Shown one piece after another: positions 5,764 to 59,327 of a DNA stretch of 64,000 nt (within the stretch, counting starts at the first letter, position 1; each line of letters opens with the position of its first letter). A program made the translations under genes and the position numbers. A model generated the notes under the pieces. It made no database searches. It worked only from the letters and a program-made list of their open reading frames with translations, and was not told the DNA's origin. The stretch comes from Elusimicrobiota bacterium (lineage in GTDB: Bacteria > Elusimicrobiota > Elusimicrobia > UBA1565 > UBA9628), in assembly GCA_023249645.1 (NCBI GenBank), contig JAHFCF010000008.1, positions 7,257 to 71,256 on the forward strand. Direction: 5' to 3'.

Positions 5764-5801
5764 TTATCCACAAACTCGCTGCGCAGCGAGTTTGTGGATA
5801 A
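5764..5801. promoter_or_regulatory. 38-bp perfect inverted repeat carrying two DnaA-box consensus 9-mers (TTATCCACA ... TGTGGATAA)
   Basis: TTATCCACAAACTCGCTGCG|CAGCGAGTTTGTGGATAA read directly. It lies between the xdh stop (5833) and the aconitase-family start (5692). Confidence 0.6.
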
Positions 5802-5832
5802 GTCTTCTGGAGGATTCGACGCGAGTTGAAAC

Positions 5833-8316: not shown

Positions 8317-11300
8317 TCAGTGATTGTCATCGAAGGGCAGCTTGTTCTGGCCGATCCGGAAAAGCACGAAGAAAGCGACATTGATCGCGGCGATCACGTA
8401 CCAGGTGAAGGGGAAAGCATGGGACTCTCCCCAGATCAGGGGGACCTGCTTGGCCGTGCCGTAGGTGGCCAGGGCGATGCTCGTGGCGATGTTGACGAAG
8501 GCTCCTCGGAATCCGGAGAAGTACTGCACCATGTTTGGCATCAATCTCTTCAGCGTGGCGGTGAAGTTCGCGCTGACCGTGTGCGTCGTGGGGTTGTGCA
8601 CCATGCCGAAGATGGCCAGGCTCAAGTAGAGCGACCACGGCGCCAAGTGGAAGAGGATCGGCAAAAAGCCCAGCACCAAGAGGGCCTTAGACTCAGCGCC
8701 CAGCCAATCGCGCTGTTTGATCTTCGGCGTCAGGTTGTGGATGAAGATGTAAAGCGGGATCATCACGGCGAAGACGACGGCCAGGCTGATCAAAGCGTGC
8801 GCCGACAGCAGGGCGGCCAACGACAGCTTGATCCCGGGTCCGAGGATCAGGCTTCTGGGCAGCAACAGGAGGCCCACCCAGGCGGCCATGCTCAAGGCTC
8901 CGAACCATTTCATGGCTTGTTTAAAGGTGGTCATGTGAGGGGAGATCATACCCGTGCCGGTCGGCATCTGTCCCATGTAAAAAGAGGCGAGGAGTTTTCC
9001 GAACAATTCACTCGACCCGGCGCCTTTGCCCGCCGTCTCAGTGGCCAGCACGCCCAGCACCGAGTTGCGCATGGGCAGTTCCATGAAGGCGCATATCATG
9101 ATGAAGGCCAGGCCCCATTTGAGCATGGGGTTCTTGGCGATGACCTGCGTGTAGGAGGGAGATTTCAGCAGCAGCCAGGCCGCCACGATCACGGAGGGGA
9201 GCGCGGACCTCGTCAGGAATGTGACGGGCCCAGTCCAAAGCCAAGAAACGGATAGCGGTGAAAAATGGAAGACCGGATAGGCGAGTGGAGGCAGGGGACA
9301 GAGGAAGAGGACCGCTAATCCGGCGAAGAGCAGCCCATAGCTTGCCCATCGCAGCCAGGTCCGGCGCGGGGTCGCCTTTAATATCGCATAGAGCTGCCGG
9401 CCCGCTTTATGGAGCTGTACCGCCGTGAACAGGACACTGTTCCAGAGGCGCGCGACGGGGGCGAGGATAGGCGGAGTCCTCGATGCGCGCACGTGTTTGA
9501 GGAATTCAGCGTTGACCCGAGCGTTGTCCACCTGCGGAGCGCCGACCTTGCGGCCTATGCCCGCCGGAATGGTCCGCCAGAGGACCAGCACCGGGAGCAT
9601 CTGCCCGGCGCCGGCGATGAGGAATGTCTTCATGTATCCCCAGCCGTCGACATGCTTTCCCAGCCATAGCCCCGACCCGACCGTGACGAGGATCGTGGCG
9701 ATCCGGATCATTGCTTCGTTGGAGCGCAGATCGTGCTCGTTGGTCGCCAGATCGGCCATCATGGCGAAGTCCAAAACGAACAGAAGCGCGAACTGTAGGG
9801 TGCTCAGCGCGGTCAGGACGAGCAGGGACGGGAAGCTCAGCATGGCGTACCCGATGGCCGCGGCGGTGATGAAGCTGATGACTGCCCGGAGGGCGAAATT
9901 AAAGAGGACGGCCGATTTTTTGTTTTGGATCCCGTCCATGATCTTGCCCACGGCCAGGGCCAGGCCGATGGCGATGATGCCTCCCAGCACGCCCAAGGTG
10001 AACATGCTCGCGGTGCCCACGGCCTTGATGATCATGGGGGTGTAGGCCAGGGTGATGAGCGAGCCGGCGACCATGGAGAAAAAGCGTGAGCCGAAGAGCC
10101 CCATGACCGCCGTTTTCTTCTGCTGGACGGACAAGTCGCTTTCATAAGTCAGCAGCGGGATGATCGAGGTCTTCTTCTGTTCGCTCGCCTTTATCTTTTC
10201 CCGGACAGAGACCAGATGTCCAGAGATGGACCGGACGCCCTGCAGGCCCATGTCGTCGAGCTTGTTGTCATACGCGACGATCTCCAGAGCGATGCGCGCT
10301 TCGGTCGTGCCGAGCGCGTCGAGACCGGCCATGGCCACCATGCGGTCGTTCTTGGGCTTGCCGCGGTCCGCGGCGATGGCTTGGAACTCCGCCACGAGGC
10401 CCGCGTCTGTGGCGCTTTTCTCAAGTTCAGCGCGGGCTTGAGGGGATCCGAAGGCGTCGAGGATCCTGACGGAGGCGACCCTGTCGGCCAGTACTTGCTG
10501 TCTGTCCCGGATGTTGGCGCCGAGCTGCGCGATCGCGGGAGAGACTTCCTGGACTGCCGGAGCCGCTTCGATGGCCCGGATGAAGGCCCGCAGCGCCCGC
10601 AGGGCCGTGACCCGGTCGGCGATCGGCTGGCGCGCGTTGCGGGCGACCTGGCCTAAGTCGGCGGAGAGGGGCGCGTCTTGAGCGAGGCGGACCAGGAACG
10701 ATTGGGCTTCTTCGCCGCGCGATTCGATGATCCGGATGGCCGCGATCCGATCCGCGATATTTTTTTGCTGGTTGCGCGCGATGCCGGCGAGGTCTTCAGT
10801 CGATAGATCGGAGAGCTTTGGCGCTTTGTTCGTGCCGAGCGCGTTGAGGCTGGCCATGGCCGCCATCCGGTCATTCTGGGGCCTGGCGCGATCCGCGGCA
10901 AGGACTTGAAGTGCCGCCACGAAGTCCGCATCACGAGCGCTTTTCTTGAGTTCTACGCGGGCTTGCGGGGATCCGAACGCTTGGAGGATCCTGACGGAGG
11001 AGACCCTATCGGCCGGGGGGTGTCGTTCGTCTCGGGTGTTGGCGCCGAGCTGCGAGATCGCCCAGGCGACTTCCTTGGCTGCGGGAGCTTCGTCCAGGGC
11101 CCGGGCGAGAGCCCTGAGGGCCCGCAGGGCCGCGATCCTGTCGGCGATCGGCAGGCGTGTGTCGCGGGCTGTATGGCCCAGGTCGACGGCCAAGGTCGCG
11201 TTTTGAGCCAGCCGGAGCAAAGACGGCCGGGCATCTTTTCCTTGCGACTCCACGAGCCGCAGGGCCTCGATCCGGTCTGTGATCTTTTTCTTCTGGTCAC

Positions 11301-11583
11301 GTGCGATGCCGGTCAGATCTTCCGTCGACAGAGGGGCTGCGCCGGTGATATCCGCGGCTTGCTGCGCAGGGTCTCCCTGTGGGAACAGAGGCGCGCCGGC
11401 ATCCCGCTTTCCTGGTTCAAGATCGAAATGCAGGAAGCCGAGATTCTTGGGACCCTGGGAGGCGTCCCCGGGAGGAGGAGTGCTTTTGGGAAGCGCTGCC
11501 CACGCTTGCTGGCCTGGGGAGAGGAGGATCAGGGTCGCGCAGAGCGCCCCTGCCAGAATGCGCTGCCAAAGCCGGATCCTCAC
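8317..11583 (-). CDS. Fusion protein: signal peptide + two tandem ~175-190-aa HEAT-like (PBS-lyase type) repeat units + C-terminal polytopic membrane domain (>=12 TM helices, MFS/nucleotide-transporter-like)
   Basis: N-terminal Sec signal (…PGQQAWA|A). Repeated 'ADRIAALRALRA / ADRVSSVRILQAFGSPQARVELKKSA / NDRMAAMASLNALG' motifs. The C-terminal about 600 aa is strongly hydrophobic with many helices. It is one uninterrupted frame. Confidence 0.6.
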   Translation of the reverse strand: MRIRLWQRILAGALCATLILLSPGQQAWAALPKSTPPPGDASQGPKNLGFLHFDLEPGKRDAGAPLFPQGDPAQQAADITGAAPLSTEDLTGIARDQKKKITDRIEALRLVESQGKDARPSLLRLAQNATLAVDLGHTARDTRLPIADRIAALRALRALARALDEAPAAKEVAWAISQLGANTRDERHPPADRVSSVRILQAFGSPQARVELKKSARDADFVAALQVLAADRARPQNDRMAAMASLNALGTNKAPKLSDLSTEDLAGIARNQQKNIADRIAAIRIIESRGEEAQSFLVRLAQDAPLSADLGQVARNARQPIADRVTALRALRAFIRAIEAAPAVQEVSPAIAQLGANIRDRQQVLADRVASVRILDAFGSPQARAELEKSATDAGLVAEFQAIAADRGKPKNDRMVAMAGLDALGTTEARIALEIVAYDNKLDDMGLQGVRSISGHLVSVREKIKASEQKKTSIIPLLTYESDLSVQQKKTAVMGLFGSRFFSMVAGSLITLAYTPMIIKAVGTASMFTLGVLGGIIAIGLALAVGKIMDGIQNKKSAVLFNFALRAVISFITAAAIGYAMLSFPSLLVLTALSTLQFALLFVLDFAMMADLATNEHDLRSNEAMIRIATILVTVGSGLWLGKHVDGWGYMKTFLIAGAGQMLPVLVLWRTIPAGIGRKVGAPQVDNARVNAEFLKHVRASRTPPILAPVARLWNSVLFTAVQLHKAGRQLYAILKATPRRTWLRWASYGLLFAGLAVLFLCPLPPLAYPVFHFSPLSVSWLWTGPVTFLTRSALPSVIVAAWLLLKSPSYTQVIAKNPMLKWGLAFIMICAFMELPMRNSVLGVLATETAGKGAGSSELFGKLLASFYMGQMPTGTGMISPHMTTFKQAMKWFGALSMAAWVGLLLLPRSLILGPGIKLSLAALLSAHALISLAVVFAVMIPLYIFIHNLTPKIKQRDWLGAESKALLVLGFLPILFHLAPWSLYLSLAIFGMVHNPTTHTVSANFTATLKRLMPNMVQYFSGFRGAFVNIATSIALATYGTAKQVPLIWGESHAFPFTWYVIAAINVAFFVLFRIGQNKLPFDDNH
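10190..11340 (-). repeat. Tandem direct DNA repeat (~527-bp period, 2 copies) inside the HEAT-repeat coding region
   Basis: Near-identical 45-50-mers occur at about 10442 and 10968 ('ggggatccgaaggcgtcgaggatcctgacggagg…'). The encoded protein units are about 60% identical. Confidence 0.6.
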
Positions 11584-11689
11584 GAATTCATTCTAACATG
11601 AGTGAAAAAATAACCTATAGGTCTTTGGGCTTAAAAAGGACCGGCAAAAGGCCCAGGCTGAAATAGGTCTATCGACCTATATTTTTTGG

Positions 11690-11742
11690 GGCCTTGCAAA
11701 AAAGACAGACATGTACTATAATATGTACATATTGGGGGATCC
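11690..11742 (+). promoter_or_regulatory. Putative promoter/operator of the phd-yoeB operon: TATAAT flanked by ATGTAC direct repeats, forming the perfect palindrome ATATGTACATAT
   Basis: Sequence 'acatgtacTATAATatgtacatattggggg' lies immediately 5' of the Phd ATG. Toxin-antitoxin operons are typically autoregulated at such palindromes. Confidence 0.45.
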
Positions 11743-14250: not shown

Positions 14251-15084
14251 TTATTTCGCCCCCATTATATCAGAGTCGAGGAACTCCCGGATCGCCCTTT
14301 CGACGATCTCCGATTTTTCCTCGTGGGGCACATGGCCGCATTCCGGGACGTGGAAGAATCTGGCTTGGGGCACCTCGCGGCAGAAGCGCTGGGCATCTTC
14401 GATGTGCACGAGGCAGTCATGCTCGCCGTGGATGAAGAGGACCGGGCCTTTGAGCTCGCGATAGCGCCTGAGGAAGCCCGCCACGTGTTTGTGGACGCCG
14501 CGGCGCATGGTCTCGGCGATGGAATGGCGTCCCTCGCGGGTCTGAAGGGCGATGGCGTATTCCTGGATCAGCTCCTCGGTGACGAGGTTTTGATCCAGGA
14601 AAGCCGTGGGCGCCACGACCCGGACGAGCCACGGGCCCAGGAGCGGCTCCAAGAGCCGGCCGAGCAGCGGGGTGCGCATGATGCGTATGATGCGCGGGAT
14701 GTGGCGCTCATCCACGGGCGTGCCGATCAGGACCAGGCGCGAGACGCGCGCTGGATGGTCCAGGGCCAGGGCAATCGAGATGGCGCCTCCCATGGAGCTG
14801 CCGATGAGCACGGCCTGGGGCAGGCCGAGCGTGTCCATGAAAGAGTTCAGCCAGCGCGTGAAGCCGACCAGGGAATAGTCGAAGTCGCGGGGCTTCTCCG
14901 AGCGGCCGAAGCCCGGCAGGTCAGGGGCATAGACCGCGTGGGTCTTGGCGAAGGCGGGCAGCAGACGGCGCCAGCCATAGGAGGAGGCGCCCATGCCGTG
15001 GAGGAAGATGAGAGGCTGGCCTTTCCCGCCGGAGAGCAGGTGGGTCCTGATTCCGGCGACGACGAGGGAGGACGGGGAGACCAT
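14251..15084 (-). CDS. Alpha/beta-fold hydrolase
   Basis: 277 aa. It has the nucleophile elbow 'GSSMGG', an N-terminal 'FLHGMGAS' oxyanion region, and a C-terminal 'HVPECGHVPHEE' His block. Confidence 0.8.
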   Translation of the reverse strand: MVSPSSLVVAGIRTHLLSGGKGQPLIFLHGMGASSYGWRRLLPAFAKTHAVYAPDLPGFGRSEKPRDFDYSLVGFTRWLNSFMDTLGLPQAVLIGSSMGGAISIALALDHPARVSRLVLIGTPVDERHIPRIIRIMRTPLLGRLLEPLLGPWLVRVVAPTAFLDQNLVTEELIQEYAIALQTREGRHSIAETMRRGVHKHVAGFLRRYRELKGPVLFIHGEHDCLVHIEDAQRFCREVPQARFFHVPECGHVPHEEKSEIVERAIREFLDSDIMGAK

Positions 15085-15100
15085 AAAGGATTATAGGCCT

Positions 15101-15185
15101 TTTGGACTAGAAAGGTCTAGGTCCTAATTCCCTGAAAAATTGCCCAAAGGACCCAGGCGGGTTTTTAGGCCATGGGGTATAATAA
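15101..15185 (+). promoter_or_regulatory. Conserved promoter cassette copy A (inverted-repeat operator-like GGACTAGAAAGGTCTAGGTCC + 'ccctgaaaaattgccc' + TATAAT)
   Basis: It is about 80% identical over about 95 bp to 17590..17701. It ends with 'ggtataataaatgcagATG'. Confidence 0.6.
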
Positions 15186-15917
15186 ATGCAGATGCAGGGA
15201 GATATGAACATGAACAAGAATATCTGGCCGCTTCTCGCCTTGGGCGTCGCGCTGGTTTCCGTCGGCGCGAACAGCGCCTGGGCCTTGGAGGATCTCCCTG
15301 CCGGAGGCCTCTCGCAGATCACTGGGAACGAAAAAACGTCCGAGGACGTTAAAGCGGCTGGCGACGTCAAGGCGTGGGATGTGGGTGCGGCTCTCAAAGC
15401 CAGGTTTTCCAATTTCAATGCGCGAGTTGTCCAGGCGAATCAGCAGGCTCGTCCGTGGTGTTCGTATGGACCATGCATGACGAATGGGATGGCTGCTCGC
15501 TCCGACACGCAGTCTGCTGCTCCGGACACAAAAAACTGTTGGAGGTATTGGGGAGCATGCCCGGCCGTGAATGAGCCGGCGGCAGTTCAAGCCGTCGTTC
15601 CTTTGACGCCGACGGACTTCGGGGCCGGCCATTATGCACCGTATGAAACGAGCGCCTCGCTGAAAAACAGCGCTCCTTCCGCCGGCGATCAGGCAGCCCA
15701 GACCGCCAACAACTGTTGGCGGCATTGGGGAGGGTGCGCGGCTCTGAATCTGTCGGTCGCTCCCAAAGCCGAGCTCGCGCCGAAAACAGACGCTCAGCCT
15801 GCATCAGAAACAGCCATCAGGCCTGCGCCGGAAGTCGCCCTTTGGTCTAACCGAAATTCTCATGCCATGAGGGGCTGCGCGGGTTCCGAGAGGGACTGCG
15901 ATCGGATCTGGCGGTAG
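15186..15917 (+). CDS. Secreted hypothetical protein with duplicated Cys/Trp motif N-C-W-R-[YH]-W-G-[AG]-C
   Basis: It has a signal peptide (…ANSAWA|LED). Motifs are 'KNCWRYWGACPAVNE' and 'NNCWRHWGGCAALNL', plus 'CSYGPCM'. No family was recognised. Confidence 0.5.
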   Translation: MQMQGDMNMNKNIWPLLALGVALVSVGANSAWALEDLPAGGLSQITGNEKTSEDVKAAGDVKAWDVGAALKARFSNFNARVVQANQQARPWCSYGPCMTNGMAARSDTQSAAPDTKNCWRYWGACPAVNEPAAVQAVVPLTPTDFGAGHYAPYETSASLKNSAPSAGDQAAQTANNCWRHWGGCAALNLSVAPKAELAPKTDAQPASETAIRPAPEVALWSNRNSHAMRGCAGSERDCDRIWR

Positions 15918-15920
15918 GGC

Positions 15921-17276
15921 GTGTCTTCGCCGCGCCCTCGATGGACGTTAAGCTTCCCCTGCGCGTGTCTGCTCCTGCCCTTCTCTGTTCCGTCCGCCTG
16001 GGCCCTGATCGGCAACGGGCACGACAGCTTCTTCCAGGAAGTTGAAGCGGACCTGAGGTCGCTGCGCGACGAAGCCGCCGGCCTTTCTCAAAGCGTCCAG
16101 GTCTTCCAGAGCGACATCGTCCCTTGGACCCTGCGGATCACCGCCGAGTTCGCCGATGCTCCACGCAACCTCCAGCTGCTGACGAGCGGCCAGGCAGCGG
16201 AGTGGCGTTCGGTCGGCAATCCCAACGATCCTGCTGCCTTCTGCAAGCAGGAGTTCTTGGACATCCTCTGGCACGGTTTTACCGATGCTTCCGGGCACGT
16301 TCACCGGAGCATCCATTACTATCTGGGCAAGGCCCGGTTCAGCGGTCTTTTGTCTTTGGTTCCGCTCAAGGGCACCTATTGGCCCGTGGCCGTCTGGAAG
16401 GTCCCGGATCCCTTCGACATCACCCGCGCCCAGGCTGAGGCGAAGGGTTTTGAGCAGGGGCTTCGTGAGCGTGAGGACTATTGGGCCCGGGAGAAAGCCG
16501 TCTACAATCGCTACCTGCAGGCGTTCGATCAGATGTTGTCCGTAGACCCTTCTTTGCCGTTGGTCACGGATGAATTCGGCCGTCAGCATCCGGCTTCGCT
16601 TCTCGTCTGGAGGGATCGAGAGAGGGGCCGGAGCGTCGAGGCCGAGGCTGCGGCCAAGGATTCTTTGGCGAGGCTCGATGCCGAGGCTGAAATCATCAAC
16701 CAAGAGATCTCGGCGGATGCTCCGAAGCTCCCTCTGATCTCGACATTGGCGCCGGGCCGATTAAAGGGCGTCCTGCCGATATATGCCGCTCAGTTGAGTC
16801 GACTCGAGACCCAGAGCAGGGGTTTGCTGCGAGCCGAGCTCAGGCCCCTGCTGGCTGCGTTCATTGCCGCTGACTACTATTTCATCCGATGGGCGCAAGC
16901 CGACGCTGATCTGGCGCAGATCGATCAAGCCATCCCTATCCTGGAGAGGGCTCGGGCTGGCTTCTTGGACAGCATGAAAATGTTCGATGAGGTGGCCTCG
17001 GACATCCAGGCGGATCGGATCTTTGTGGCCGCAGAGGAACACAGCGGAGAAGAGATACAGGCCATGTTCCATCGCAAGAAGGTCCTGATCCAAGACACCA
17101 TCCTGCCGCGCTTGAGGGAAGCCAAGGCTCTTCTGGGGAGCGAGACGAGCCCGGGCACGCTGCTCTGGCTCCTGCAGCAGCGCCTCTTGGCTGTGGATCC
17201 GAAAGGCGCCAGCGGGCCCTACTACGCCATTTTCTCGAATCAAGTGGCCTTGAGGGACCTGGTCGATCGGTTTTAG
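15921..17276 (+). CDS. Secreted hypothetical protein (GNPNDP-motif family); translationally coupled to the upstream Cys-motif protein
   Basis: 451 aa, GTG start 4 bp after the upstream stop. It has a signal peptide (…SAWA|LIG). It shares 'W[RS].GNPNDP[AS]A' and C-terminal 'LIQ…PRL' blocks with the 40670..41674 protein. Confidence 0.5.
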   Translation: MSSPRPRWTLSFPCACLLLPFSVPSAWALIGNGHDSFFQEVEADLRSLRDEAAGLSQSVQVFQSDIVPWTLRITAEFADAPRNLQLLTSGQAAEWRSVGNPNDPAAFCKQEFLDILWHGFTDASGHVHRSIHYYLGKARFSGLLSLVPLKGTYWPVAVWKVPDPFDITRAQAEAKGFEQGLREREDYWAREKAVYNRYLQAFDQMLSVDPSLPLVTDEFGRQHPASLLVWRDRERGRSVEAEAAAKDSLARLDAEAEIINQEISADAPKLPLISTLAPGRLKGVLPIYAAQLSRLETQSRGLLRAELRPLLAAFIAADYYFIRWAQADADLAQIDQAIPILERARAGFLDSMKMFDEVASDIQADRIFVAAEEHSGEEIQAMFHRKKVLIQDTILPRLREAKALLGSETSPGTLLWLLQQRLLAVDPKGASGPYYAIFSNQVALRDLVDRF

Positions 17277-17320
17277 CCGGAGGTAAGAGCTCGCTCCAGT
17301 GAAGTTTCGACCAGCGCAAG

Positions 17321-17510
17321 GCGACTTATCCACCGACTCTTCGCGTGAAGAGCCGGCGGGCGAACTTGGTGCGCACCAAGTCAATCAACTGGCGGTCACA
17401 GTTGCCCAATAGACAAAAGTGTAACCCATGTGCCCGGTCTGCTTTGTACCTATGTGGCCGGTCTGTACCCAGTTGATCAACTGTTGCCGGCAACAGTTGG
17501 CCGAAAAATC
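17321..17510. repeat. Palindromic intergenic repeat element, copy X (DnaA-box-like TTATCCACC + hairpins CTCTTCGCGTGAAGAG, TTGGTGCGCACCAA, GTTGCCGGCAAC)
   Basis: Core 'cttggtgcgcaccaagt…aactg…cagt.gcc' is shared with copies near 38250 and 42955. This copy carries an internal insert with direct repeats 'atgtg[cg]ccggtctg'. Confidence 0.6.
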
Positions 17511-17589
17511 GCATTGAATTGATGAGTAAGCGTTTCAGCGCGGGCTGAGAACTTTATTTGGGCGAGCTGTTACAGCCGAAGTGCCCTCT

Positions 17590-17701
17590 AGGTCTTTGGA
17601 CCTAGAAAGGCCCAGGTCCAAATTCCCTGAAAAATTGCCCGATAGGCCCAGGCGCTTTTCCCATCCCCAGGCTATAATAAGGAAAGATGTAAAGGGAGGA
17701 T
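17590..17701 (+). promoter_or_regulatory. Conserved promoter cassette copy B (GGACCTAGAAAGGCCCAGGTCC inverted repeat + 'ccctgaaaaattgccc' + TATAAT)
   Basis: Paralogous to 15101..15185. It ends with 'ggctataataaggaaagatgtaaagggaggatATG' (SD GGAGG). Confidence 0.6.
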
Positions 17702-18205
17702 ATGACCATGAATAAGTCAACCTGGAAGTGCGCGGGACCTGTTTTTGTGTTGGCCATCGTGCTGATCTCCGCGGGCGCCGATCGCGCGTGGGCCTTGACG
17801 GACGTGTGCACTGAAAACTGCGACGTCACCCTGGAAGCCGTGAAACAGCTTGGAAGAGATCTGGCCGCTTGGAATGCTCAGCGGAAGATGCGCCAGGCTG
17901 TGGAGAAGCGGGAGGCCAGCAAGATCAATGATGAAGTCTTCGGTCCCCAGGCTCGATTTGAGAAGATCCTCCAGTGGGCGGAAGGCATTTCAAAGAAGGA
18001 TATGATCGGCCCCGTTGAACTCCAGCGCAAGGTGGTGGTCAGCGCTTCTGAGACCGTGGTCGTCTATACGGGGCGCGCGGTGACGAAGAAGAAAAACTGC
18101 ACGGTGACTCTCAGGAACTACTATCCGAGCAATCTGGCTCTCGATTCTATCGGTTGCGGCGGCAAGGCCGAGAAGACCTTTGTCGCTCCGTTCCAAAGCC
18201 GGTAG
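17702..18205 (+). CDS. Small secreted hypothetical protein
   Basis: 167 aa with a signal peptide (…ADRAWA|LTD) and 4 Cys. It is driven by promoter cassette B. No family was recognised. Confidence 0.5.
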   Translation: MTMNKSTWKCAGPVFVLAIVLISAGADRAWALTDVCTENCDVTLEAVKQLGRDLAAWNAQRKMRQAVEKREASKINDEVFGPQARFEKILQWAEGISKKDMIGPVELQRKVVVSASETVVVYTGRAVTKKKNCTVTLRNYYPSNLALDSIGCGGKAEKTFVAPFQSR

Positions 18206-18208
18206 CGG

Positions 18209-18670
18209 CTACTTCTTCGTCGCGTCCTCGATGGCCTCGATGATGGGCGCATAGCCCGTGCACCGGCAGAGATTGCCGGCGATGGCTTCCTGGATCTCCC
18301 CGCGGTTGGGCTTGGGATTCTTCTGAAGAAGTTCGGTGGCGGATAAAACCATCCCCGGCGCGCAGAATCCGCATTGAAAGGAGCTGTGCGCCACGAAGCT
18401 CTTCTGCAGCTTGGTCGGGCCGTGCTTGGAGATGCCCTCCAAGGTCACGATCTCGGCGCCGTCCGCCTCGATGGCCAGGACCAGGCAGCTGCGCACCGTG
18501 CGGCCGTTCAAAAAGACCGTGCAGGTGCCGCAGTCGCCCCGGTCGCAGCCTATCTTGGGGCTCTTGACCCCGAGCTTCTCGCGCAGCACGTCCACCAGCA
18601 CGTCATTGGGCTCGATTTCGACCTGTCGCTTGACGCCATTGAGCATGAGCTGGATGGGGGTCTTCTTCAT
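18209..18670 (-). CDS. Xanthine dehydrogenase-family (2Fe-2S)-binding small subunit
   Basis: 153 aa. The plant-type ferredoxin motif 'GCDRGDCGTCTV' and second cluster 'CGFCAPG…CRCTGY' are present. Confidence 0.9.
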   Translation of the reverse strand: MKKTPIQLMLNGVKRQVEIEPNDVLVDVLREKLGVKSPKIGCDRGDCGTCTVFLNGRTVRSCLVLAIEADGAEIVTLEGISKHGPTKLQKSFVAHSSFQCGFCAPGMVLSATELLQKNPKPNRGEIQEAIAGNLCRCTGYAPIIEAIEDATKK

Positions 18671-21807: not shown

Positions 21808-21833
21808 GGGTCAGGCATTGACTTTTGACTGAG
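21808..21833. promoter_or_regulatory. Half-site copy of the ssnA-upstream palindrome (GGGTCAGGCATTGACTTTTGACTGAG), 21-46 nt upstream of the ylbE-like start
   Basis: It is a 23/23 match to the left arm of 1096..1144. A related 'gggtcagtgattgtcat' lies in the xdh 5' region at about 8301..8325. Confidence 0.6.
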
Positions 21834-21921: not shown

Positions 21922-22176
21922 ATGAATAATGCGATCAAGACCGCCATCAGCCTTCCCGCCGGTGTTTTCCGCCAGGCCGAGGTTCTGCGCCATCAAGCGG
22001 GGCTGTCCCGCAGTGCGCTTTACACCGAGGCGCTCAAGGCGTATTTCGAGTTTCAGCTCGTCCGCGAGAAAGAGGCGCGCTACGGCGCCGGCTATGAGGG
22101 GAAACCAGAAGACTTAAGCGTCATCTCCGCGGCAACGGCTGCGGGGGCCGCGAGCCTCAAGAAGGAGGATTGGTAA
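21922..22176 (+). CDS. Ribbon-helix-helix antitoxin (CopG/MazE-like)
   Basis: 84 aa. 'KTAISLPAGVFRQAEVLRHQAGLSRSALYTEALKAYF' is a beta-strand followed by two helices (RHH). It abuts a MazF gene and is preceded by an AT-rich promoter region. Confidence 0.7.
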   Translation: MNNAIKTAISLPAGVFRQAEVLRHQAGLSRSALYTEALKAYFEFQLVREKEARYGAGYEGKPEDLSVISAATAAGAASLKKEDW

Positions 22177-27140: not shown

Positions 27141-27308
27141 GGGGCCTCCGGGTTGGACGTTAGCTTGGCTGACAAGAAGATTTTACCACGATGCCGGGAT
27201 TTTGTCACATGATTTTTTTCTAGGTCCAAATTGGGCCTTGACAAGATCGGCTGGGGGGGGGTAGACTATCGCTACTTGATGCCCATCTGTTAAGAGAGGT
27301 GAAGGCCG

Positions 27309-31368: not shown

Positions 31369-31372
31369 GGTT

Positions 31373-35260: not shown

Positions 35261-38077
35261 TTAAGAGGGGTTCTTGCGCAGCGCCTCTGTGAGGGCCGTC
35301 CAATATCCAAAACTGCTTGCAAATTCTGACTGCAAGGGAGCATCAACGACTTCCGGTTCCGGTCGGGATTCTGAGGAGAACTTGTTGGGGAAATTGATTT
35401 TAGCCGATCGGATCAACTGCCCCTCGGATCCTACCAGGAAAAACATGGCTTTCCCATTTTCTCCCAAGGAGAAAATGTAATGTCCGACTTGCGATTTCCC
35501 TTGAGAGGAATAGGCGTAGGAATACAGGGCATGGAGCCTCTTGGTTCCATCAGGAGATTTTTCATAGAAACCCGGCATATGCCATGCTTTGATCTGTGAG
35601 TCTGCGGGCAGCCGGAACATCTTGATGGCACTCGCCGCATTATTCGAGGTCAGGGTTCTGCCCTTGCCGGCGACTTGTTCGACCATGAAGCTCCACGCTT
35701 GCGGCGGGATCTTCGGCGACTTGGGCTGGGCCGCTGCTTGGGTCGGTCCGCTCCCTTTAGTATTTGTGGGGCTGGCTGGCGGGGTCTCGGCTTTGGCCTG
35801 GGGTTGTTCGCTCGGAGGAGGCAGCTGTTTTTTTACGGTATCGAGGATGAATTCCTTCAGACCGGCAAAGCCGGTCTTCAGGTCCTTGGGCGTCGGGTTG
35901 TAGCGGATGCTCCCTTTGACTCCCCAGTCCTCGAGCGTATCTTTCAGGCTGCCATCGAGCAGCCTGCGGATGGCCATGCTGGCGGTGTAAGAAAAGCCGG
36001 CGATGCCTTCACTGTTGAGCAGCTCCAGGGAATGCACGACTCCGCCGGCGCCGGCCGTGTGCTCGCCGGCGACGCTGACGATCAGGGCGCGCCCATTGTC
36101 CTGCAGGATGGCGGGCATGAAGTCTCCGCCGGAGAAGTCCAGCGGGTTCGTCAAGAACACGATGGGCTTGGTGTAGCGCTCCTCCGCGTTGTCCACGGGC
36201 TGAATATAGTCGATGCCTTGCAAAGCCATGGGTTCCGTGAAGCGCGTCTTGACGTCGGCGAATTGCTCCACGATGAAGAGCGCATACTTAAAGAGGCCCT
36301 TCATGAATTCCGGGGTGATCGGATAGCCGTCCGCTGTAGGCTGCCTTCTCACAATCTTAGGCTGAGGTTGGGGCTGCGGGTTTTCTCCTGCGGCTTTCTC
36401 CGGAGCCTGGGGGCCGCCTGGGGGGGTCATCATCTGCTGAAGCCGGCTGAGAAGCTGCCTGGCCCAAGTGTATTCCGGCTCTCCGATCTTGAGCTGGTGT
36501 TTGGGGGTGATGAGAGGCTTGTCCGTGAGATGGGAGGCCAGGGCATAGAGGTAGAAGACAGAACCGCCCGGATTGTTCATCTGGTCGATGACCAAGCCGT
36601 CGGTTTCCTTTTGGAACAGGACGATGATCTTCTTGAACTCTGCGACTTCCTTATCGCTGCCGCTGTAGCTGGAGATGCGCAAAAAGCCGATCTTGCGTTG
36701 GTCCACGGTCTCGAAGATGGCAGGTCGGAAGGGATTGTCCGGGGGGCCCTGCCAGAGGATCTTCCCTAAGGGCGGGAGCATGCTCTCCGGAGAGCCGACC
36801 ATGTGGGGATTGCTCTTATGGGCTCCCTCCACCATCTGCTCGAAGATCGCGATATGCGGATGGGCGACCTTGGAGTAGGCGAGCTTGATGAGTTTGAGCA
36901 CCGCGTCCATCCCAGACTCGGGCGCGTCGTTGTCCGCATCGAGCCCCGATTGCGGCTGGTTGAGCCCTCCGCTGGCTTTGGGAGACGATGCATCGTCGGG
37001 AGGGACATCGCTTGGATACTGCTCCTCGGTGATGACCCATTTCGTCTTGATGTCGAATGCCTGGTCCGGCTGGCCCTGCGCCTCTCGGCGGATCTTGAGA
37101 GAAACCTCGTTGGAGGCGGGGAGTTGGTCGCCCCTAGCGCGGCGCTGATTGGTCAGGAAGATCGCAGCCAAGAGGCGGTTCGTGTCCGGAGAGCTGCCCC
37201 CCGCTTGGGCGGCCAGCTCGTCGATGGCGGCGGCCACGGGCCGGCCGTTGAATTCGACGATCTCGTCGCCGACCTTCAAAGCGGCCAGCTCGGGTTGCTG
37301 CGCGCTGGGGCTGATGAAGGCCACGTAGTATCTGTATTGGCCGTCCACGAGCATCGGGATCACCGTGAGCGGCAAGCGCGCCCCTCCGGTGGCATAGAAC
37401 ATGGTGCTGTCGTGATAGTTGAGTACGGCCGCGAAGAATCTTCGCAGGCGGACCTGGAATTCGGCGACCGTGATGTTCGGGTTGGAGACGATGGCTCTGT
37501 AGAACTCCTTGTAATGCCCCTGGATGTCGATGTGGAATCGTTCTTCCTTCTTGCGGAGGGGCGCATCGTTCTTGAGGAAAACGTTGTAGATGTAGTTGAG
37601 GCTGGTCCGCATGTCCTCGCGCAAGGCATCGAGAGGTTCGGACTGGCTGTCGGCCGACGCGCCGGCTCCGGCGGCGTCTTCCACGTCGTTGGTCAGCGCC
37701 TCGACGACTTCAAATCCAAGACCCTTGGCCGCGTCATCGGTCATTTTTCCGATCGGGCCGACCTCCAGGCCCCGCTGTACTCGCCGGGATTTCGCGGCGA
37801 TCTTGTCCCCGATGCTCCGCGGGCCTGTTTGAGGAGCGGGCATCGCTTGGGGAGTCGGAGCAGGGCTGAGGATCCCCGCGCTGGGCGGCAGGAGAGGCGG
37901 AGTTTTTGAGAATTGTTCTTGCGGAGCGGCGATGTTGGCGCCCACGGGCGGGACGAATACGGGCGGCAGCAAAACGGGGACCAGGAAGGCTTTCTTCGCT
38001 GTCGGTCCTTGGGCGAAGACAGGGTTCGAGAGGCAGGCCAGCAGCCCGACGGCGATGAATGCTTTAAAAAGGCGCAT
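35261..38077 (-). CDS. Secreted S41-family peptidase (C-terminal processing / tricorn-core-like), large multidomain
   Basis: Start at 'MRLFKAFIAVGLLACLSNPVFAQG' (signal peptide, GGAG Shine-Dalgarno). 'IDQMNNPGGSV' is the S41 hallmark, with a downstream 'LTNPLDFSGGDF' Ser region. It is Pro-rich with low-complexity linkers. Confidence 0.7.
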   Translation of the reverse strand: MRLFKAFIAVGLLACLSNPVFAQGPTAKKAFLVPVLLPPVFVPPVGANIAAPQEQFSKTPPLLPPSAGILSPAPTPQAMPAPQTGPRSIGDKIAAKSRRVQRGLEVGPIGKMTDDAAKGLGFEVVEALTNDVEDAAGAGASADSQSEPLDALREDMRTSLNYIYNVFLKNDAPLRKKEERFHIDIQGHYKEFYRAIVSNPNITVAEFQVRLRRFFAAVLNYHDSTMFYATGGARLPLTVIPMLVDGQYRYYVAFISPSAQQPELAALKVGDEIVEFNGRPVAAAIDELAAQAGGSSPDTNRLLAAIFLTNQRRARGDQLPASNEVSLKIRREAQGQPDQAFDIKTKWVITEEQYPSDVPPDDASSPKASGGLNQPQSGLDADNDAPESGMDAVLKLIKLAYSKVAHPHIAIFEQMVEGAHKSNPHMVGSPESMLPPLGKILWQGPPDNPFRPAIFETVDQRKIGFLRISSYSGSDKEVAEFKKIIVLFQKETDGLVIDQMNNPGGSVFYLYALASHLTDKPLITPKHQLKIGEPEYTWARQLLSRLQQMMTPPGGPQAPEKAAGENPQPQPQPKIVRRQPTADGYPITPEFMKGLFKYALFIVEQFADVKTRFTEPMALQGIDYIQPVDNAEERYTKPIVFLTNPLDFSGGDFMPAILQDNGRALIVSVAGEHTAGAGGVVHSLELLNSEGIAGFSYTASMAIRRLLDGSLKDTLEDWGVKGSIRYNPTPKDLKTGFAGLKEFILDTVKKQLPPPSEQPQAKAETPPASPTNTKGSGPTQAAAQPKSPKIPPQAWSFMVEQVAGKGRTLTSNNAASAIKMFRLPADSQIKAWHMPGFYEKSPDGTKRLHALYSYAYSSQGKSQVGHYIFSLGENGKAMFFLVGSEGQLIRSAKINFPNKFSSESRPEPEVVDAPLQSEFASSFGYWTALTEALRKNPS

Positions 38078-38249
38078 GCAGATCTCCTTGTCTGGAGGAT
38101 TTTCTCTGAGCATATACTAACATCACCCAGGCTTTTGCCTCTGGGTCCATTGGACTAGGAAGGGGGCGGCAAAGGACCTAGATGAAAATAGGAAAAAAGA
38201 CCTATTTTCTAAGAGCCGCTCGTCTCAGCAGGGATCGCTGGATGTTCCG

Positions 38250-40669: not shown

Positions 40670-41674
40670 TTAAAAAGCTGCCTGGAGCGCTTCCTGGATC
40701 CGTCTTTTTTGATAGGGGATCAGGACTTTCGTGAACATGTCCTGAGCCTGCGTCAAGCGGGGAAACATTTTTTTCTGGATCAGGTCGCTTTTGCGGGCGA
40801 TGACGGTGGAGATCGGCGTGCCGGCGGCTTGGTCCTGGATGTCCTGGTCCGCATCCGCCAAGAGATCGTCGCACATCGTCACGAGGCGGGAGAAAGCCGC
40901 GCGCGCTTGCGGCAGGACCGGGTCCATGGCGTCGCGGATGGATCGGACGGCCGAGTCGCAGCGCGACCAGCGATCGAGAGTCTGCTCCAGAGGATTGTGG
41001 AGATGGGTGATGAGGGAGATGCGGCTGGTCGCCTGGAGGATCTGGTCGGGATCCGTCGGCATGCGGCCGGGCTTGAAAAGCAGGCTGAAATAACCGGGCA
41101 GGATGGTCCGGAGGTCTTGAAGCGGCATGGAGGCGAGGATCGGGGGGTCCGCTTGCGGGATCTCCGCGGCGTAGCCGTCGATGTGAGAGGCCAAGACGCG
41201 GGAAGTCTGCGCGTAGAGCGAGCGCCTCTTCTTTTCCACCCCCAGGCGTTGGGGAAGGGATCGGGGCAGGACGTCGCCGAACTCGTCTTGGACCTGTGTG
41301 TCGTTGTCCGGGTCCAGGGCGCTGTCGATCGCGGTCATGTATCCTTGATAGATCCGTTTGCGATTTTCCCATGAGATCTTGCGCGATTGGGGATCGGCCA
41401 TGAGGTGGAGCGCCATCGCTTGCGCCTGCTTGTGATCCGTGTTGGATAAGTGGTCATCGTCGATCAGGGCTTTGGAGATGTCGTCGTGGATCCTGGAGAA
41501 GTCGCGCTGGAGTCTGTCGAGCGACCAGGCGGAGGGGTCGTTCGGGTTTCCGTGCGTGCGCCAGGAGGCTACTTGAGCGGAGTTGACTGGTCTGCTTGCG
41601 GGCGCAGCCGCCCCAAGTCCCATGGGCAAGACCCAGGTCAGAACAGCGATTGTCGCCAGCTTGTTCTTCAGCAT
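40670..41674 (-). CDS. Secreted hypothetical protein (GNPNDP-motif family, distant paralog of 15921..17276)
   Basis: 334 aa with a signal peptide. 'WRTHGNPNDPSAW' and a C-terminal 'LIQKKMFPRL' block are shared with the 15921..17276 protein. Confidence 0.45.
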   Translation of the reverse strand: MLKNKLATIAVLTWVLPMGLGAAAPASRPVNSAQVASWRTHGNPNDPSAWSLDRLQRDFSRIHDDISKALIDDDHLSNTDHKQAQAMALHLMADPQSRKISWENRKRIYQGYMTAIDSALDPDNDTQVQDEFGDVLPRSLPQRLGVEKKRRSLYAQTSRVLASHIDGYAAEIPQADPPILASMPLQDLRTILPGYFSLLFKPGRMPTDPDQILQATSRISLITHLHNPLEQTLDRWSRCDSAVRSIRDAMDPVLPQARAAFSRLVTMCDDLLADADQDIQDQAAGTPISTVIARKSDLIQKKMFPRLTQAQDMFTKVLIPYQKRRIQEALQAAF

Positions 41675-41754
41675 GGATTCATTTTAGCGTAAAAAAGATT
41701 CTCGCGATAGAGTCCTTTGGGTCTTTTGGTCCGTTATGATATCCTTATGGAGCT

Positions 41755-58889: not shown

Positions 58890-59327
58890 CCGGCTTCCCT
58901 CATAAGAAGTGGCCAAATAATTCTGTCCTTCGTTTTTTCACTTGAGCCCAGCATGATTTATCTAAAGGTTTTCAAAAAAATTCCACCTATTTCTCGAATT
59001 GTCATTATTTTATAAGTATTTTTTTTCGAGTACCGCCAGCGCTGGAGGTAAAATAAAAATAATGATTATAAAATAATAACTTTTCGATAATGCCCCGTCA
59101 TCTTGGGAACTTTTTCTCAGGAGATGAGTTCGTTCTTTAAAGAAAAATCTTTGGGCCGTTCATTTCATCAGAAGAATTCAGGTTAACCTTTGCCGGCAAA
59201 GGTTGAAAAAACAGAGAGAAAAATCGTCCCCGTCGCATGGTCTGCTTGCAAGGGGGCCAAAAGACCCAGACGCGCCTGGGTCTTTAAGCCCTCGATGAAA
59301 TCGGAAGCCGGGGCTATCTTGAGAGTC

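What the first reader, a model, noticed from the sequence alone, without database searches (positions are those of the whole stretch)
15101..17701. Duplicated roughly 95-bp promoter cassette driving two unrelated small secreted proteins; a related motif sits at two other divergent promoters
The regions 15101-15185 and 17590-17701 are about 80% identical. Each has an inverted repeat GGAC(C)TAGAAAGG(Y)C(Y)AGGTCC, the block 'ccctgaaaaattgccc', and a TATAAT 7-15 nt before the start codon. They precede a 243-aa Cys-motif secreted protein and a 167-aa secreted protein, respectively. Shorter related motifs (ggtctttgg.c…aaagg.ccagg / ggcaaaagg.cc.ag) occur at about 11621-11660, between the HEAT-fusion gene and phd, and at about 38146-38200, between the S41 peptidase and the XRE gene. 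This pattern suggests a dedicated regulator or alternative sigma factor controlling a secretome regulon. The minus-strand ORFs 15107..15418 and 17602..17829 are just read-throughs of this repeat.
Basis: seen in the sequence. Interest (0 to 1): 0.55.

Follow-up and report, generated by a model that had tools for sequence, protein, structure and literature searches.

The report
Shared two-way promoter module for secreted proteins
A roughly 94-base control region with a fixed layout of short DNA-binding motifs and promoter boxes recurs four to five times in this 64-kb stretch, each time next to a gene for an exported protein, so it is most likely the docking site of one unidentified regulator rather than a simple duplicated promoter.

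Summary
The repeat is real: 15094-15194 and 17589-17689 are about 82% identical and share an identical 20-mer. It is not a free-standing promoter cassette. The homology runs on through the ribosome-binding site, the signal peptide and about 25 more codons, so the two proteins are N-terminal paralogues. Synonymous sites in that coding part are near saturation, so the better-kept upstream DNA is under constraint.

Anchoring on the -10 boxes shows one architecture at four loci: A 15090-15183, B 17585-17678, C 11590-11683 and D 38114-38208. A half copy, F, lies at 41681-41729. The layout is: outward -10, 21 nt, half-site CTRGGYCYTTTGG, an A-rich gap of about 12 nt, inverted half-site CCAAARGRCCYAG, 21 nt, outward -10 (TAnAAT). 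One flank also carries the palindrome TAGGTC-N4-GACCTA.

The palindrome-free side always faces a signal-peptide gene. There is no conserved -35 box, and the core is centred near -41.

Best reading: an unidentified transcription factor controls two-way promoters of exported proteins. An alternative sigma factor does not fit the geometry. No comparative or expression data could be obtained.

The parts
15090..15183 (.). Module A: complete two-way promoter module between the alpha/beta-hydrolase gene (14251-15084, minus strand) and the 235-aa secreted-protein gene
   Evidence: Alignment anchored on the -10 boxes; the outer -10 hexamers span 94 bp
15090..15095 (-). TATAAT -10 box for the hydrolase gene; 5 nt before ATG 15084, a leaderless-type arrangement
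   Evidence: Promoter scan found TAGACC-18-TATAAT on the minus strand; leaderless pattern
15094..15109 (.). O1 palindrome, imperfect copy: TAGGCC-TTTT-GGACTA
   Evidence: 3 mismatches to TAGGTC-N4-GACCTA; same register as in B, C and D
15118..15123 (+). Half-site TAGGTC; also the core for the minus-strand promoter (GAATTAGGACCTAG + 21 nt + TATAAT)
15126..15145 (+). 20-nt block AATTCCCTGAAAAATTGCCC, identical in A and B only; A-rich spacer between the half-sites
   Evidence: absent from genome and metagenome collections apart from chance hits
15143..15156 (+). Core CCCAAAGGACCCAG, 21 nt upstream of the -10 box; centred near -41 of the inferred start site
15178..15183 (+). TATAAT -10 box of the p235-p451 operon
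15210..15917 (+). p235: orphan secreted protein with Cys-x5/6-Cys repeats (signal peptide ...SAWA|L); Shine-Dalgarno AGGGAG at 15196-15201
15921..17276 (+). p451: second gene of the operon, secreted, all-alpha; paralogue of p334
17585..17678 (.). Module B: same layout as A; its left-hand -10 box is decayed (CCTCTA) and no divergent gene is present
17589..17604 (.). O1 palindrome, perfect copy: TAGGTC-TTTG-GACCTA
   Evidence: 0 mismatches
17613..17618 (+). Half-site CAGGTC
17638..17651 (+). Core CCCGATAGGCCCAG, 21 nt upstream of the -10 box
17673..17678 (+). TATAAT -10 box of the p165 gene
17708..18205 (+). p165: orphan secreted protein; its first ~57 residues are paralogous to p235; Shine-Dalgarno AGGGAGG at 17693-17699
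11590..11683 (.). Module C: complete module between the 1088-aa secreted-protein gene (minus strand) and phd
   Evidence: outer hexamers span 94 bp
11590..11595 (-). TAGAAT -10 box, 6 nt before GTG 11583 of the 1088-aa gene (leaderless-type)
11617..11630 (-). Core GCCCAAAGACCTAT, 21 nt upstream of TAGAAT
11643..11656 (+). Opposite core GGCAAAAGGCCCAG, 21 nt upstream of TATATT (11678-11683)
11664..11679 (.). O1 palindrome, perfect copy: TAGGTC-TATC-GACCTA
   Evidence: 0 mismatches
8317..11583 (-). p1088: secreted protein with no known domain (signal peptide ...QQAWA|A)
38114..38208 (.). Module D: complete module between the CPAF-like S41 peptidase gene (minus strand) and the XRE side
   Evidence: outer hexamers span 95 bp
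38114..38119 (-). TAGTAT -10 box (preceded by TGt) for the peptidase gene
38141..38154 (-). Core TCCAATGGACCCAG, 21 nt upstream of TAGTAT
   Evidence: 2 mismatches
38168..38181 (+). Opposite core GGCAAAGGACCTAG, 21 nt upstream of TATTTT (38203-38208)
38189..38204 (.). O1 palindrome: TAGGAA-AAAA-GACCTA (2 mismatches)
35261..38077 (-). CPAF-like S41 peptidase, 938 aa counted from ATG 38077 (Shine-Dalgarno AAGGAG); has a signal peptide
   Evidence: NF033424, 409.5 bits against a cut-off of 250
41681..41729 (-). Half module F: TAAAAT -10 box (41681-41686), 21-nt spacer, core CCCAAAGGACTCTA (41708-41721) and an overlapping second half-site (41717-41729); 6 nt before ATG 41674
40670..41674 (-). p334: secreted paralogue of p451
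   Evidence: 28% identity over 331 aa, E = 6e-20
59257..59288 (.). Site E: the same half-sites in the opposite arrangement, as a tight palindrome CCAAAAGACCCAG-acgcg-CCTGGGTCTTTAAG, about 40 nt upstream of the 424-aa signal-peptide gene (59328)
   Evidence: z = -3.7
27220..27227 (+). Site G: isolated half-site CTAGGTCC(AAATT), 10 nt upstream of a canonical TTGACA-18-TAGACT promoter of an ankyrin-repeat gene with an N-terminal membrane segment

Best explanation
The two near-identical segments are the best-preserved pair of a family of rigid, roughly 94-bp two-way promoter modules.

**Layout.** Each module has two outward-facing housekeeping-type -10 boxes (TAnAAT). Each box is preceded at exactly 21 nt by one arm of a long-range inverted repeat (CTRGGYCYTTTGG ... 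CCAAARGRCCYAG). The hexamer half-sites are 26-27 nt apart. One flank also carries a 16-bp palindrome, TAGGTC-N4-GACCTA, which overlaps the spacer and -10 box on that side.

**Inferred mechanism.** No -35 hexamer is conserved. Counting from the -10 boxes, each core is centred near -41. I infer that one sequence-specific DNA-binding protein, probably a dimer of dimers, occupies these sites. On the palindrome-free side it would control the promoter from a class-II-type position. That side always reads into a signal-peptide protein: the p235/p451 operon, p165, p1088, the CPAF-like protease or p334. At the palindrome it would sit across the spacer and -10 box of the opposite promoter, a repressor-type position.

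**Origin of A and B.** These two are especially alike because they descend from a duplication of a gene's 5' end: promoter, leader, signal peptide and about 25 codons.

**Shown versus inferred.** Shown: the sequence architecture, its statistics, the paralogy and the signal peptides (by inspection). Inferred: transcription start sites, protein binding, and whether regulation is positive or negative.
For: - **A/B repeat and coding homology:**
- **Constraint on the upstream DNA:** in the aligned coding part, third codon positions are 26/50 identical, and 10/21 within identical residues. The adjoining upstream segment contains a 39-nt stretch at 92% identity and a 20-nt identical block, and the diverged 21-nt spacer keeps its exact length.
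- **Motif enrichment:** the A/B-derived half-site hits other intergenic DNA 7 times against 0.47 expected. The 13-mer with at most 1 mismatch gives 9 hits against 0.72 expected, 7 of them in the 6.2% of the window that is intergenic.
- **Perfect palindrome:** TAGGTC-N4-GACCTA occurs twice with no mismatch. About 0.004 would be expected by chance (my arithmetic).
- **Fixed geometry:** core + 20-22 nt + TAnnnT with at most 3 core mismatches gives 4 hits against 0.03 in shuffles; at most 5 mismatches recovers A, B, C, D and F.
- **Colinear alignment:** A+, B+, C- and D- align without gaps when anchored on the -10 box. 31 of 81 columns are invariant among A, C and D, against 5.1 +/- 2.3 for random intergenic triples.
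- **Register check:** in ungapped scans of all 128,000 positions, the best non-self hit of C- is D- in exactly this register, and the best hit of A+ apart from B is C- in this register.
- **Spacing:** palindrome start to far -10 box is 84, 84, 84 and 85 nt. The half-sites are 26, 26, 26 and 27 nt apart.
- **Contrast with other promoters:** other promoters in the window have canonical TTGACA-like -35 boxes.
- **-10 assignments:** -10 boxes 5-7 nt before start codons recur in the window, which supports the assignments.
- **Neighbouring genes:** all five modules abut signal-peptide genes. p334 and p451 are paralogues.
Against: - There is no transcription-start, expression or binding data.
- There are no orthologous loci. 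All public contigs recovered are 100% identical to the window, and the cargo proteins are orphans. Conservation is therefore judged only between paralogous or analogous copies within one 64-kb window.
- The architecture was recognised post hoc, so the statistics on register and invariant columns are not fully independent of how the alignment was chosen.
- Because the motifs are palindromic, profile searches also align C and D to A and B in the opposite orientation at weak E-values (1e-3 to 1.4).
- Sites E, G and H carry the half-site but not the geometry.
- If both sides of each module are counted as promoters, 3 of 8 read into cytoplasmic genes, so the link to secretion weakens (my estimate: Fisher p of about 0.01).
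- Four to five modules in 64 kb is unusually dense for a local regulon.
- No candidate regulator can be assigned. The XRE gene beside D is only a guess.
Confidence: 0.6

Rival explanations
1. The modules are copies of a propagating promoter-bearing repeat: a MITE or Correia-like element, or a 'mobile promoter'. It would have landed upstream of various genes and is now decaying. The shared blocks would be relics of common descent, not binding sites for a dedicated regulator.
For: The unit has a discrete size (94-95 bp), internal inverted repeats, an A-rich centre and outward-facing -10 boxes at both ends. It is dense, with 4-5 copies in 64 kb. Other intergenic repeat families (X, Y) occur in the same window. 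A and B clearly arose by duplication.
Against: The inverted repeat is internal, not terminal. The 21-nt flanks between it and the ends are unrelated between the two sides and between copies, so there is no contiguous terminal inverted repeat and no visible target-site duplication. Copies other than A/B are only about 46-50% identical, yet they keep spacing to within 1 nt. That is the pattern of functional constraint, not neutral decay, which would accumulate insertions and deletions. The A/B duplication includes coding sequence. blastn found no similar DNA in plasmid or phage collections, and scans of genome and metagenome collections for the conserved 18- and 20-mer block gave only chance hits.
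Confidence: 0.17
2. The half-sites are REP-like extragenic palindromes that act through DNA or RNA secondary structure, for example in transcript stabilisation or termination or as nucleoid-protein or gyrase sites. They would be unrelated to promoter control.
For: Regions C, D and E fold better than shuffled controls (z = -2.6, -3.3 and -3.7). On the minus strand, A and B give weak terminator-like hits: a GCCTGGG...GGGC stem followed by AATTTTT.
Against: A and B on the plus strand are not unusually stable (z = -0.95 and -1.5). The arms keep the same sequence (TAGGTC) rather than co-varying. All copies lie in 5' regions, and none lies between convergent genes or directly after a stop codon, unlike the GC-rich X palindromes, one copy of which lies directly after a stop codon. 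The fixed 21-nt distance to -10 boxes has no explanation under this model. Rfam gave no match even at E <= 1.
Confidence: 0.08
3. A and B are alike only because of a recent duplication or gene conversion of the 5' end of one gene. Their resemblance to C, D and F would be chance among AT-rich intergenic sequences.
For: The A/B homology runs into the coding sequence. The cross-family profile E-values are weak. Ungapped identities of 43-47 out of 93 are only slightly above the noise maximum of about 42.
Against: Synonymous sites next to the conserved block are near saturation, so the duplication is old; a gene conversion confined to the non-coding part cannot be excluded. Shuffle controls that preserve local composition reject chance for the half-site, the palindrome and the core-to--10 geometry.
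Confidence: 0.07
4. The core is the -35 element of an alternative (ECF-type or other) sigma factor dedicated to secreted-protein genes.
For: A conserved element lies upstream of a -10 box at a fixed distance in five promoters that lack a TTGACA-like -35 box.
Against: The -10 boxes are housekeeping-type (TATAAT, TAGAAT, TAGTAT, TAAAAT). The invariant GGAC of the core is 25 nt upstream of the -10 hexamer, and the 6 nt at the normal -35 position are not conserved. Sigma-70-family spacers are 16-19 nt (established knowledge). Read by eye, neither strand of the conserved block fits the sigma-54 layout TGGCAC-N5-TTGC. The module is symmetric and includes a separate palindrome, which is typical of dimeric regulators.
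Confidence: 0.05

Closest known systems
Class II activator-dependent sigma-70 promoters (CRP/FNR type, site centred near -41.5)
   Same: A good -10 box and no -35 hexamer. The promoter-proximal half-site ends about 21 nt before the -10 hexamer. The positions are inferred from the sequence.
   Different: The partner half-site is 26-27 nt away instead of 6. The module serves two divergent promoters. The half-site sequence matches no operator I could identify. Whether regulation is positive or negative is unknown.
Phage lambda OR-type multipartite operator between divergent promoters (Cro/CI, XRE-family repressors)
   Same: Several related dyad or half-dyad sites, 22-24 bp centre to centre, lie between two back-to-back promoters. 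One site overlaps one promoter and another sits near -42 of the other promoter. An XRE-family gene lies beside module D.
   Different: Only O1 is a clear dyad; O3 is a weak pseudo-dyad and O2 is a single half-site. Three of the four modules have no regulator gene alongside. Nothing is phage-related.
Correia elements of Neisseria and the 'putative mobile promoters' reported across prokaryotes (both recalled from memory, not checked in a paper here)
   Same: Roughly 100-bp repeated intergenic units with internal inverted repeats and outward-reading promoter boxes, found upstream of unrelated genes.
   Different: There are no contiguous terminal inverted repeats and no target-site duplication. 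The copies are highly diverged but keep their spacing. The A/B duplication includes coding sequence.
LysR-type divergent promoter regions (recognition site near -65, activation site near -35)
   Same: A long footprint (roughly -95 to -34) with a distal dyad and a proximal site overlapping the -35 position, in divergent intergenic regions.
   Different: There is no T-N11-A motif. No LysR-type gene is divergently transcribed. The distal dyad is centred near -88.

Membership tests
Sigma-70 promoter under a class-II-type regulator | A -10 hexamer of TAnnnT type at a sensible distance from the start codon | tested here: met
   The hexamers are TATAAT, TATAAT, TAGAAT, TAGTAT and TAAAAT. Each lies either 5-7 nt before the start codon (leaderless-type) or 26-36 nt before it with a Shine-Dalgarno sequence.
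Sigma-70 promoter under a class-II-type regulator | No functional -35 hexamer; operator overlapping -35 and centred near -41.5 | tested here: met
   Columns at -35 to -30 are not conserved. The 14-nt core occupies about -47 to -34 in all five promoters. Positions assume a start site 7 nt after the -10 box.
Sigma-70 promoter under a class-II-type regulator | Mapped transcription start and demonstrated protein binding or dependence | not testable with these tools
   No transcriptome or binding data are available for this organism.
Alternative sigma (ECF) promoter | Conserved -35 and -10 elements separated by 16-19 nt, with a non-housekeeping -10 box | tested here: not met
   The conserved GGAC lies 25 nt from the -10 box, and the -10 box is TATAAT-like.
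Sigma-54 promoter | GG at -24 and GC at -12 (TGGCAC-N5-TTGC) | tested here: not met
   Reading by eye, neither strand of the conserved block has this spacing.
REP / BIME extragenic palindromes | Stable stem-loops, mostly downstream of genes or between convergent genes | tested here: not met
   All copies lie in 5' regions. Fold z-scores for A and B are -0.95 and -1.5.
REP / BIME extragenic palindromes | An associated RAYT (IS200/IS605-like) transposase and hundreds of copies per genome | not tested
   Only 64 kb plus about 4 kb of this genome was available.
MITE / Correia-like element | Contiguous terminal inverted repeats and a target-site duplication | tested here: not met
   The 21-nt flanks between the half-sites and the ends are unrelated between the left and right sides. 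No flanking direct repeat was seen.
MITE / Correia-like element | Many near-identical copies | tested here: not met
   Within the window, only A and B are similar (about 82%); the other pairs are 46-50% identical. Scans of genome and metagenome collections for the conserved 18- and 20-mer block found only chance hits.
Mobile promoter (homologous promoter upstream of non-homologous genes) | Homology confined to the non-coding upstream region | tested here: not met
   The A/B homology extends about 170 nt into the coding sequence.
Known cis-regulatory RNA (riboswitch or leader) | Match to an Rfam covariance model | tested here: not met
   No match at the gathering threshold in the window, and none at E <= 1 in 14900-18300.
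Lambda-type tripartite operator | Three similar dyad-symmetric sites about 23-24 bp apart between divergent promoters | tested here: inconclusive
   O1 is a clear dyad, perfect in B and C. O3 is a weak pseudo-dyad and O2 is only a half-site. In B the centre-to-centre spacings are 24 and 22 bp (my reading).

The most novel reading that the evidence does not exclude
The module may be a self-contained, switch-like, two-way promoter unit. On this reading it has been reused, by duplication or recruitment, to wire lineage-specific, effector-like exported proteins into one regulon in an uncultivated bacterium. Those proteins are a CPAF-like protease, a domain otherwise found inside giant 4-6 thousand-residue exoproteins, and small Cys-motif orphans. 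The regulator would be unknown, and its 14-12-14 bipartite site plus an accessory palindrome would match no described operator class.
Probability: 0.2. Interest if true: 0.65.

Novelty: new member of a known kind. Interest (0 to 1): 0.42.

Why it matters
If correct, the module gives a precise, testable signature: core, 21 nt, -10 box, with a TAGGTC-N4-GACCTA palindrome 84 nt upstream. That signature could be used to list the co-regulated exported proteins of an uncultured organism from sequence alone. It could also serve as bait to isolate the regulator.

The cargo is mostly orphan proteins plus a homologue of the chlamydial secreted protease CPAF. The regulon could therefore mark a host- or prey-interaction programme.

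It is also a worked example of a point of method. A 'duplicated promoter' can be the visible tip of a diverged promoter family that shows up only when copies are aligned on the -10 box and both strands are considered.

Tried and rejected
- **Collection scans.** The 18-mer in genome contigs and the 20-mer in metagenome contigs gave only single chance hits with no matching flanks.
- **Homologue searches.** Searches with p235, p451 and the shared N-terminal alignment found only the query proteins or nothing. No orthologous upstream regions could be compared.
- **Extending the genome.** Look-ups of window proteins added only about 1.5 kb and 2.4 kb of mostly coding sequence, with no further modules. 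All contigs recovered are identical to the window. A related contig (sample ERZ1426855) has no DNA on file.
- **Organism identity.** It could not be established. Cluster look-ups returned no names.
- **De novo motif search.** My own EM motif finder collapsed onto AT-rich sequence and was discarded.
- **First model.** I first treated C and D as plus-strand relatives of A and B carrying a 23-nt deletion. I dropped this once the minus-strand alignment proved gap-free and in register with -10 boxes.
- **Block interpretations.** Sigma-54, sigma-28, IHF and UP-element readings of the 20-nt block were considered by eye. None fits well. The A-tract may simply aid bending.
- **Mis-scored region.** 22177-22465 was first counted as intergenic, but it encodes a MazF/PemK-like protein.
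- **Literature.** A search for the half-site sequence returned nothing relevant.
- **Cargo function.** The AlphaFold2 model of p451 is good (pLDDT 83), but it has no significant PDB fold match. The best hit has E = 0.02 and TM is at most 0.26. The weak excess of ClyA-type pore-forming toxins among the hits is not evidence.

Full report
**1. The observation**

The two regions are a real repeat.
- MAFFT aligns 15085-15260 with 17575-17770 at 82% column identity.
- The repeat finder reports 15094-15194 vs 17589-17689 as family D9.
- The 18-mer TTCCCTGAAAAATTGCCC occurs exactly twice, against 0.06 expected. The identical run is 20 nt long (15126-15145 and 17621-17640).
- The inverted repeat is found only at these two places.
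- TATAAT lies at 15178-15183 and 17673-17678.

Three details of the finding need correcting.
- The homology does not end at the start codon. BLASTP of the two products gives 40% identity over 63 aligned positions (E = 2e-7). This covers the signal peptide (...AWA|L in both) and about 25 further residues.
- The likely starts are ATG 15210 and ATG 17708, each 8 nt after AGGGAG. Independent gene calls on public contigs give 235 and 165 aa. TATAAT therefore ends 26 and 29 nt before the start codon.
- In copy B, the ATG that corresponds to the upstream in-frame ATG of copy A is followed at once by TAA.

**2. The upstream DNA is constrained**

In the 50 aligned codons, nucleotide identity is 63%. 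Third positions are 26/50 identical, and only 10/21 identical within identical residues, so synonymous sites are close to saturation. The non-coding stretch just upstream is much better kept. It contains a 39-nt segment at 92% identity and the 20-nt identical block. The 21 nt between the core and the -10 box have diverged in sequence but not in length. This pattern of conserved blocks with free spacers of fixed length is the footprint of function. A gene conversion confined to the non-coding part cannot be excluded.

**3. The motif is not private to A and B**

- A half-site consensus taken from A and B only (CTRGGYCYTTT, at most 1 mismatch) hits the remaining 3.3 kb of intergenic DNA 7 times against 0.47 expected; 0 of 300 dinucleotide-preserving shuffles reach that.
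- The 13-mer CTRGGYCYTTTGG with at most 1 mismatch gives 9 hits in the window against 0.72 expected. Seven of the nine fall in the 6.2% of the window that is intergenic.
- The 16-bp palindrome TAGGTC-N4-GACCTA occurs twice with no mismatch, at 11664-11679 and 17589-17604. Degenerate copies lie at 15094-15109 and 38189-38204.
- The 9-mer GGACCTAGA/TCTAGGTCC occurs four times, all intergenic.

**4. The architecture**

The key step was to anchor on -10 boxes and allow either strand. A 14-nt core (consensus CCCAAAGGACCCAG) lies exactly 21 nt upstream of a TAnAAT hexamer in five promoters.

| Promoter | Core | -10 box |
|---|---|---|
| A, plus strand | 15143-15156 | TATAAT |
| B, plus strand | 17638-17651 | TATAAT |
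| C, minus strand | 11617-11630 | TAGAAT |
| D, minus strand | 38141-38154 | TAGTAT |
| F, minus strand | 41708-41721 | TAAAAT |

- A scan for core + 20-22 nt + TAnnnT gives 4 hits at no more than 3 core mismatches, against 0.03 in locally shuffled sequence. At no more than 5 mismatches it recovers all five promoters.
- Anchored this way, A+, B+, C- and D- align without gaps over about 94 nt.
- 31 of 81 columns are invariant among A, C and D, against 5.1 +/- 2.3 for random intergenic triples.
- In ungapped scans of all 128,000 positions, the best non-self match of C- is D- in this register. The best match of A+ apart from B is C- in this register.

The unit is symmetric. The core on one side pairs with an inverted half-site 26-27 nt away. 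That second half-site is itself followed, 21 nt further out, by a -10-like hexamer reading the other way.
- In A this is a perfect TATAAT (15095-15090), 5 nt before the hydrolase ATG. The promoter scanner also found it.
- In C it is TATATT, and in D it is TATTTT.
- The outer hexamers span 94, 94 and 95 bp in A, C and D.

One flank of each unit carries the palindrome. Its last TA is the first TA of that side's -10 box. Its start lies 84, 84, 84 and 85 nt from the far -10 box.

No -35 hexamer is conserved. Other promoters in the window do have TTGACA-like -35 boxes: phd has TTGCAA-17-TATAAT, and others appear. Hexamers 5-7 nt before start codons recur in the window, which suggests frequent leaderless transcripts and supports the -10 assignments.

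**5. What the modules drive**

The palindrome-free side always faces a gene with an N-terminal signal peptide, judged by inspection.
- The p235/p451 operon.
- p165.
- The 1088-aa protein.
- The S41 peptidase. This is CPAF-like (NF033424, 409.5 bits against a cut-off of 250). It probably starts at ATG 38077 after AAGGAG, giving 938 aa as in the public call.
- p334, a paralogue of p451 (28% identity over 331 aa, E = 6e-20).

All five modules abut such a gene, whereas only 8 of 24 promoter-bearing intergenic regions do. My hypergeometric count gives p of about 1e-3, or about 7e-3 if A and B are counted once. If both directions are counted as promoters, 3 of 8 read into cytoplasmic genes, and the association weakens to roughly p = 0.01.

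The cargo proteins are orphans. The p451/p334 domain recurs inside giant signal-peptide proteins of 3.8-5.9 thousand residues with no Pfam domain. Its AlphaFold2 model is confident (pLDDT 83) and all-alpha, but it has no significant PDB match.

**6. Mechanism**

Counting from the -10 box, each core spans about -47 to -34, centred near -41. That is the class-II position of regulators such as CRP or FNR (established knowledge). The palindrome is centred near -88 of the secreted-gene promoter and near -18 of the opposite promoter, which is a repressor-type position.

I infer a single sequence-specific regulator, probably oligomeric. It would bind the two inverted 13-14-nt sites across an A-rich 12-nt gap and also bind the palindrome, giving direction-dependent control. 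The sign of regulation and the identity of the protein are unknown.

An alternative sigma factor does not fit. The invariant GGAC is 25 nt from a housekeeping-type -10 box.

**7. Rivals**

- **Correia- or MITE-like promoter-bearing repeat.** This is the most serious rival because of the discrete size, the outward -10 boxes and the density. Against it, there is no contiguous terminal repeat and no target duplication. The non-A/B copies are only 46-50% identical yet keep spacing to within 1 nt.
- **REP-like structural role.** This is unlikely. All copies lie in 5' regions, A and B do not fold unusually well, the arms keep their sequence rather than co-varying, and Rfam gives no match.
- **Pure chance or recent duplication.** Shuffle controls and synonymous-site saturation reject this.

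**8. Limits**

- Everything rests on one 64-kb window.
- All public contigs recovered are identical to it, and both large-collection scans returned only chance hits.
- The organism is unidentified.
- The architecture was recognised post hoc.
- Sites E (59257-59288), G (27220-27227) and H (about 53014) carry the half-site without the geometry.

**9. Verdict**

The repeat is real and functional-looking. It is one pair within a diverged family of two-way promoter modules next to exported-protein genes. This is a new example of a known kind of thing, a regulon-defining composite operator, with an unusually rigid and symmetric layout. Interest is moderate. It would rise if a genome-wide scan confirms a large effector-like regulon.

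Noticed in passing
window 1097-1143 and 21808-21828: The 21-mer TCAAAAGTCAATGCCTGACCC occurs three times with no mismatch. Two copies form a 47-bp perfect palindrome just upstream of the amidohydrolase gene (1153). The third lies upstream of the leaderless-type AllG-like gene (GTG 21787). It may be the operator of a purine- or allantoin-type catabolic regulon.
   Followed up: partly
window 17335-17500, 38260-38340, 42955-43050: A second repeat family made of clusters of short GC-rich palindromes: CTCTTCGCGnGAAGAG, TTGGTGCGCACCAA and ACTGTGTCCGGACACAGT. It looks REP-like. One copy lies directly after the aminotransferase stop codon, and one lies just upstream of module B.
   Followed up: partly
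window ~5773-5810: A 38-bp perfect palindrome whose arms contain the DnaA-box-like TTATCCACA. It lies between the xanthine-dehydrogenase-like gene and the aconitase gene.
   Followed up: no
window 35261-38077 (minus strand): The S41/PDZ peptidase scores as an equivalog of the chlamydial secreted protease CPAF (NF033424, E = 2e-122, 409.5 bits against a cut-off of 250), in a 61.5% GC genome that does not otherwise look chlamydial.
   Followed up: partly
window 15921-17276 and 40670-41674; proteins P0014-P0050: The p451/p334 domain (about 370 aa, all-alpha, AlphaFold2 pLDDT 83) recurs once inside dozens of giant signal-peptide proteins of 3,800-5,900 residues. The giants sampled have no Pfam domain, and the model has no significant PDB fold match.
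   Followed up: partly
window, many lead genes (e.g. 11583, 15084, 21787, 35214, 41674, 59328): A -10-like hexamer sits 5-7 nt before the start codon and no Shine-Dalgarno sequence is present. This suggests that leaderless mRNAs are common in this organism, including one apparent GTG start.
   Followed up: partly
window ~22173-22500 (plus strand): A MazF/PemK-like toxin reading frame follows the 84-aa ribbon-helix-helix-like gene (21922-22176). My crude gene map first scored this region as intergenic.
   Followed up: no
window 29941-31458 and 31373-32881 (minus strand); 53207-54619: Two tandem caspase-like (C14) lipoprotein paralogues are 87% identical over their C-terminal 245 residues. A third copy, 56% identical, lies elsewhere.
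   Followed up: no
window 11700-11735: The phd-parE promoter (TTGCAA-17-TATAAT) is overlapped by its own palindrome, ATGTAC...GTACAT. This is presumably the antitoxin operator and is distinct from the module motif.
   Followed up: no
window 15186-15917: p235 contains four Cys-x5/6-Cys loops, two of them NCWR(Y/H)WG(A/G)C. No homologue was found among 5.8 billion proteins.
   Followed up: partly
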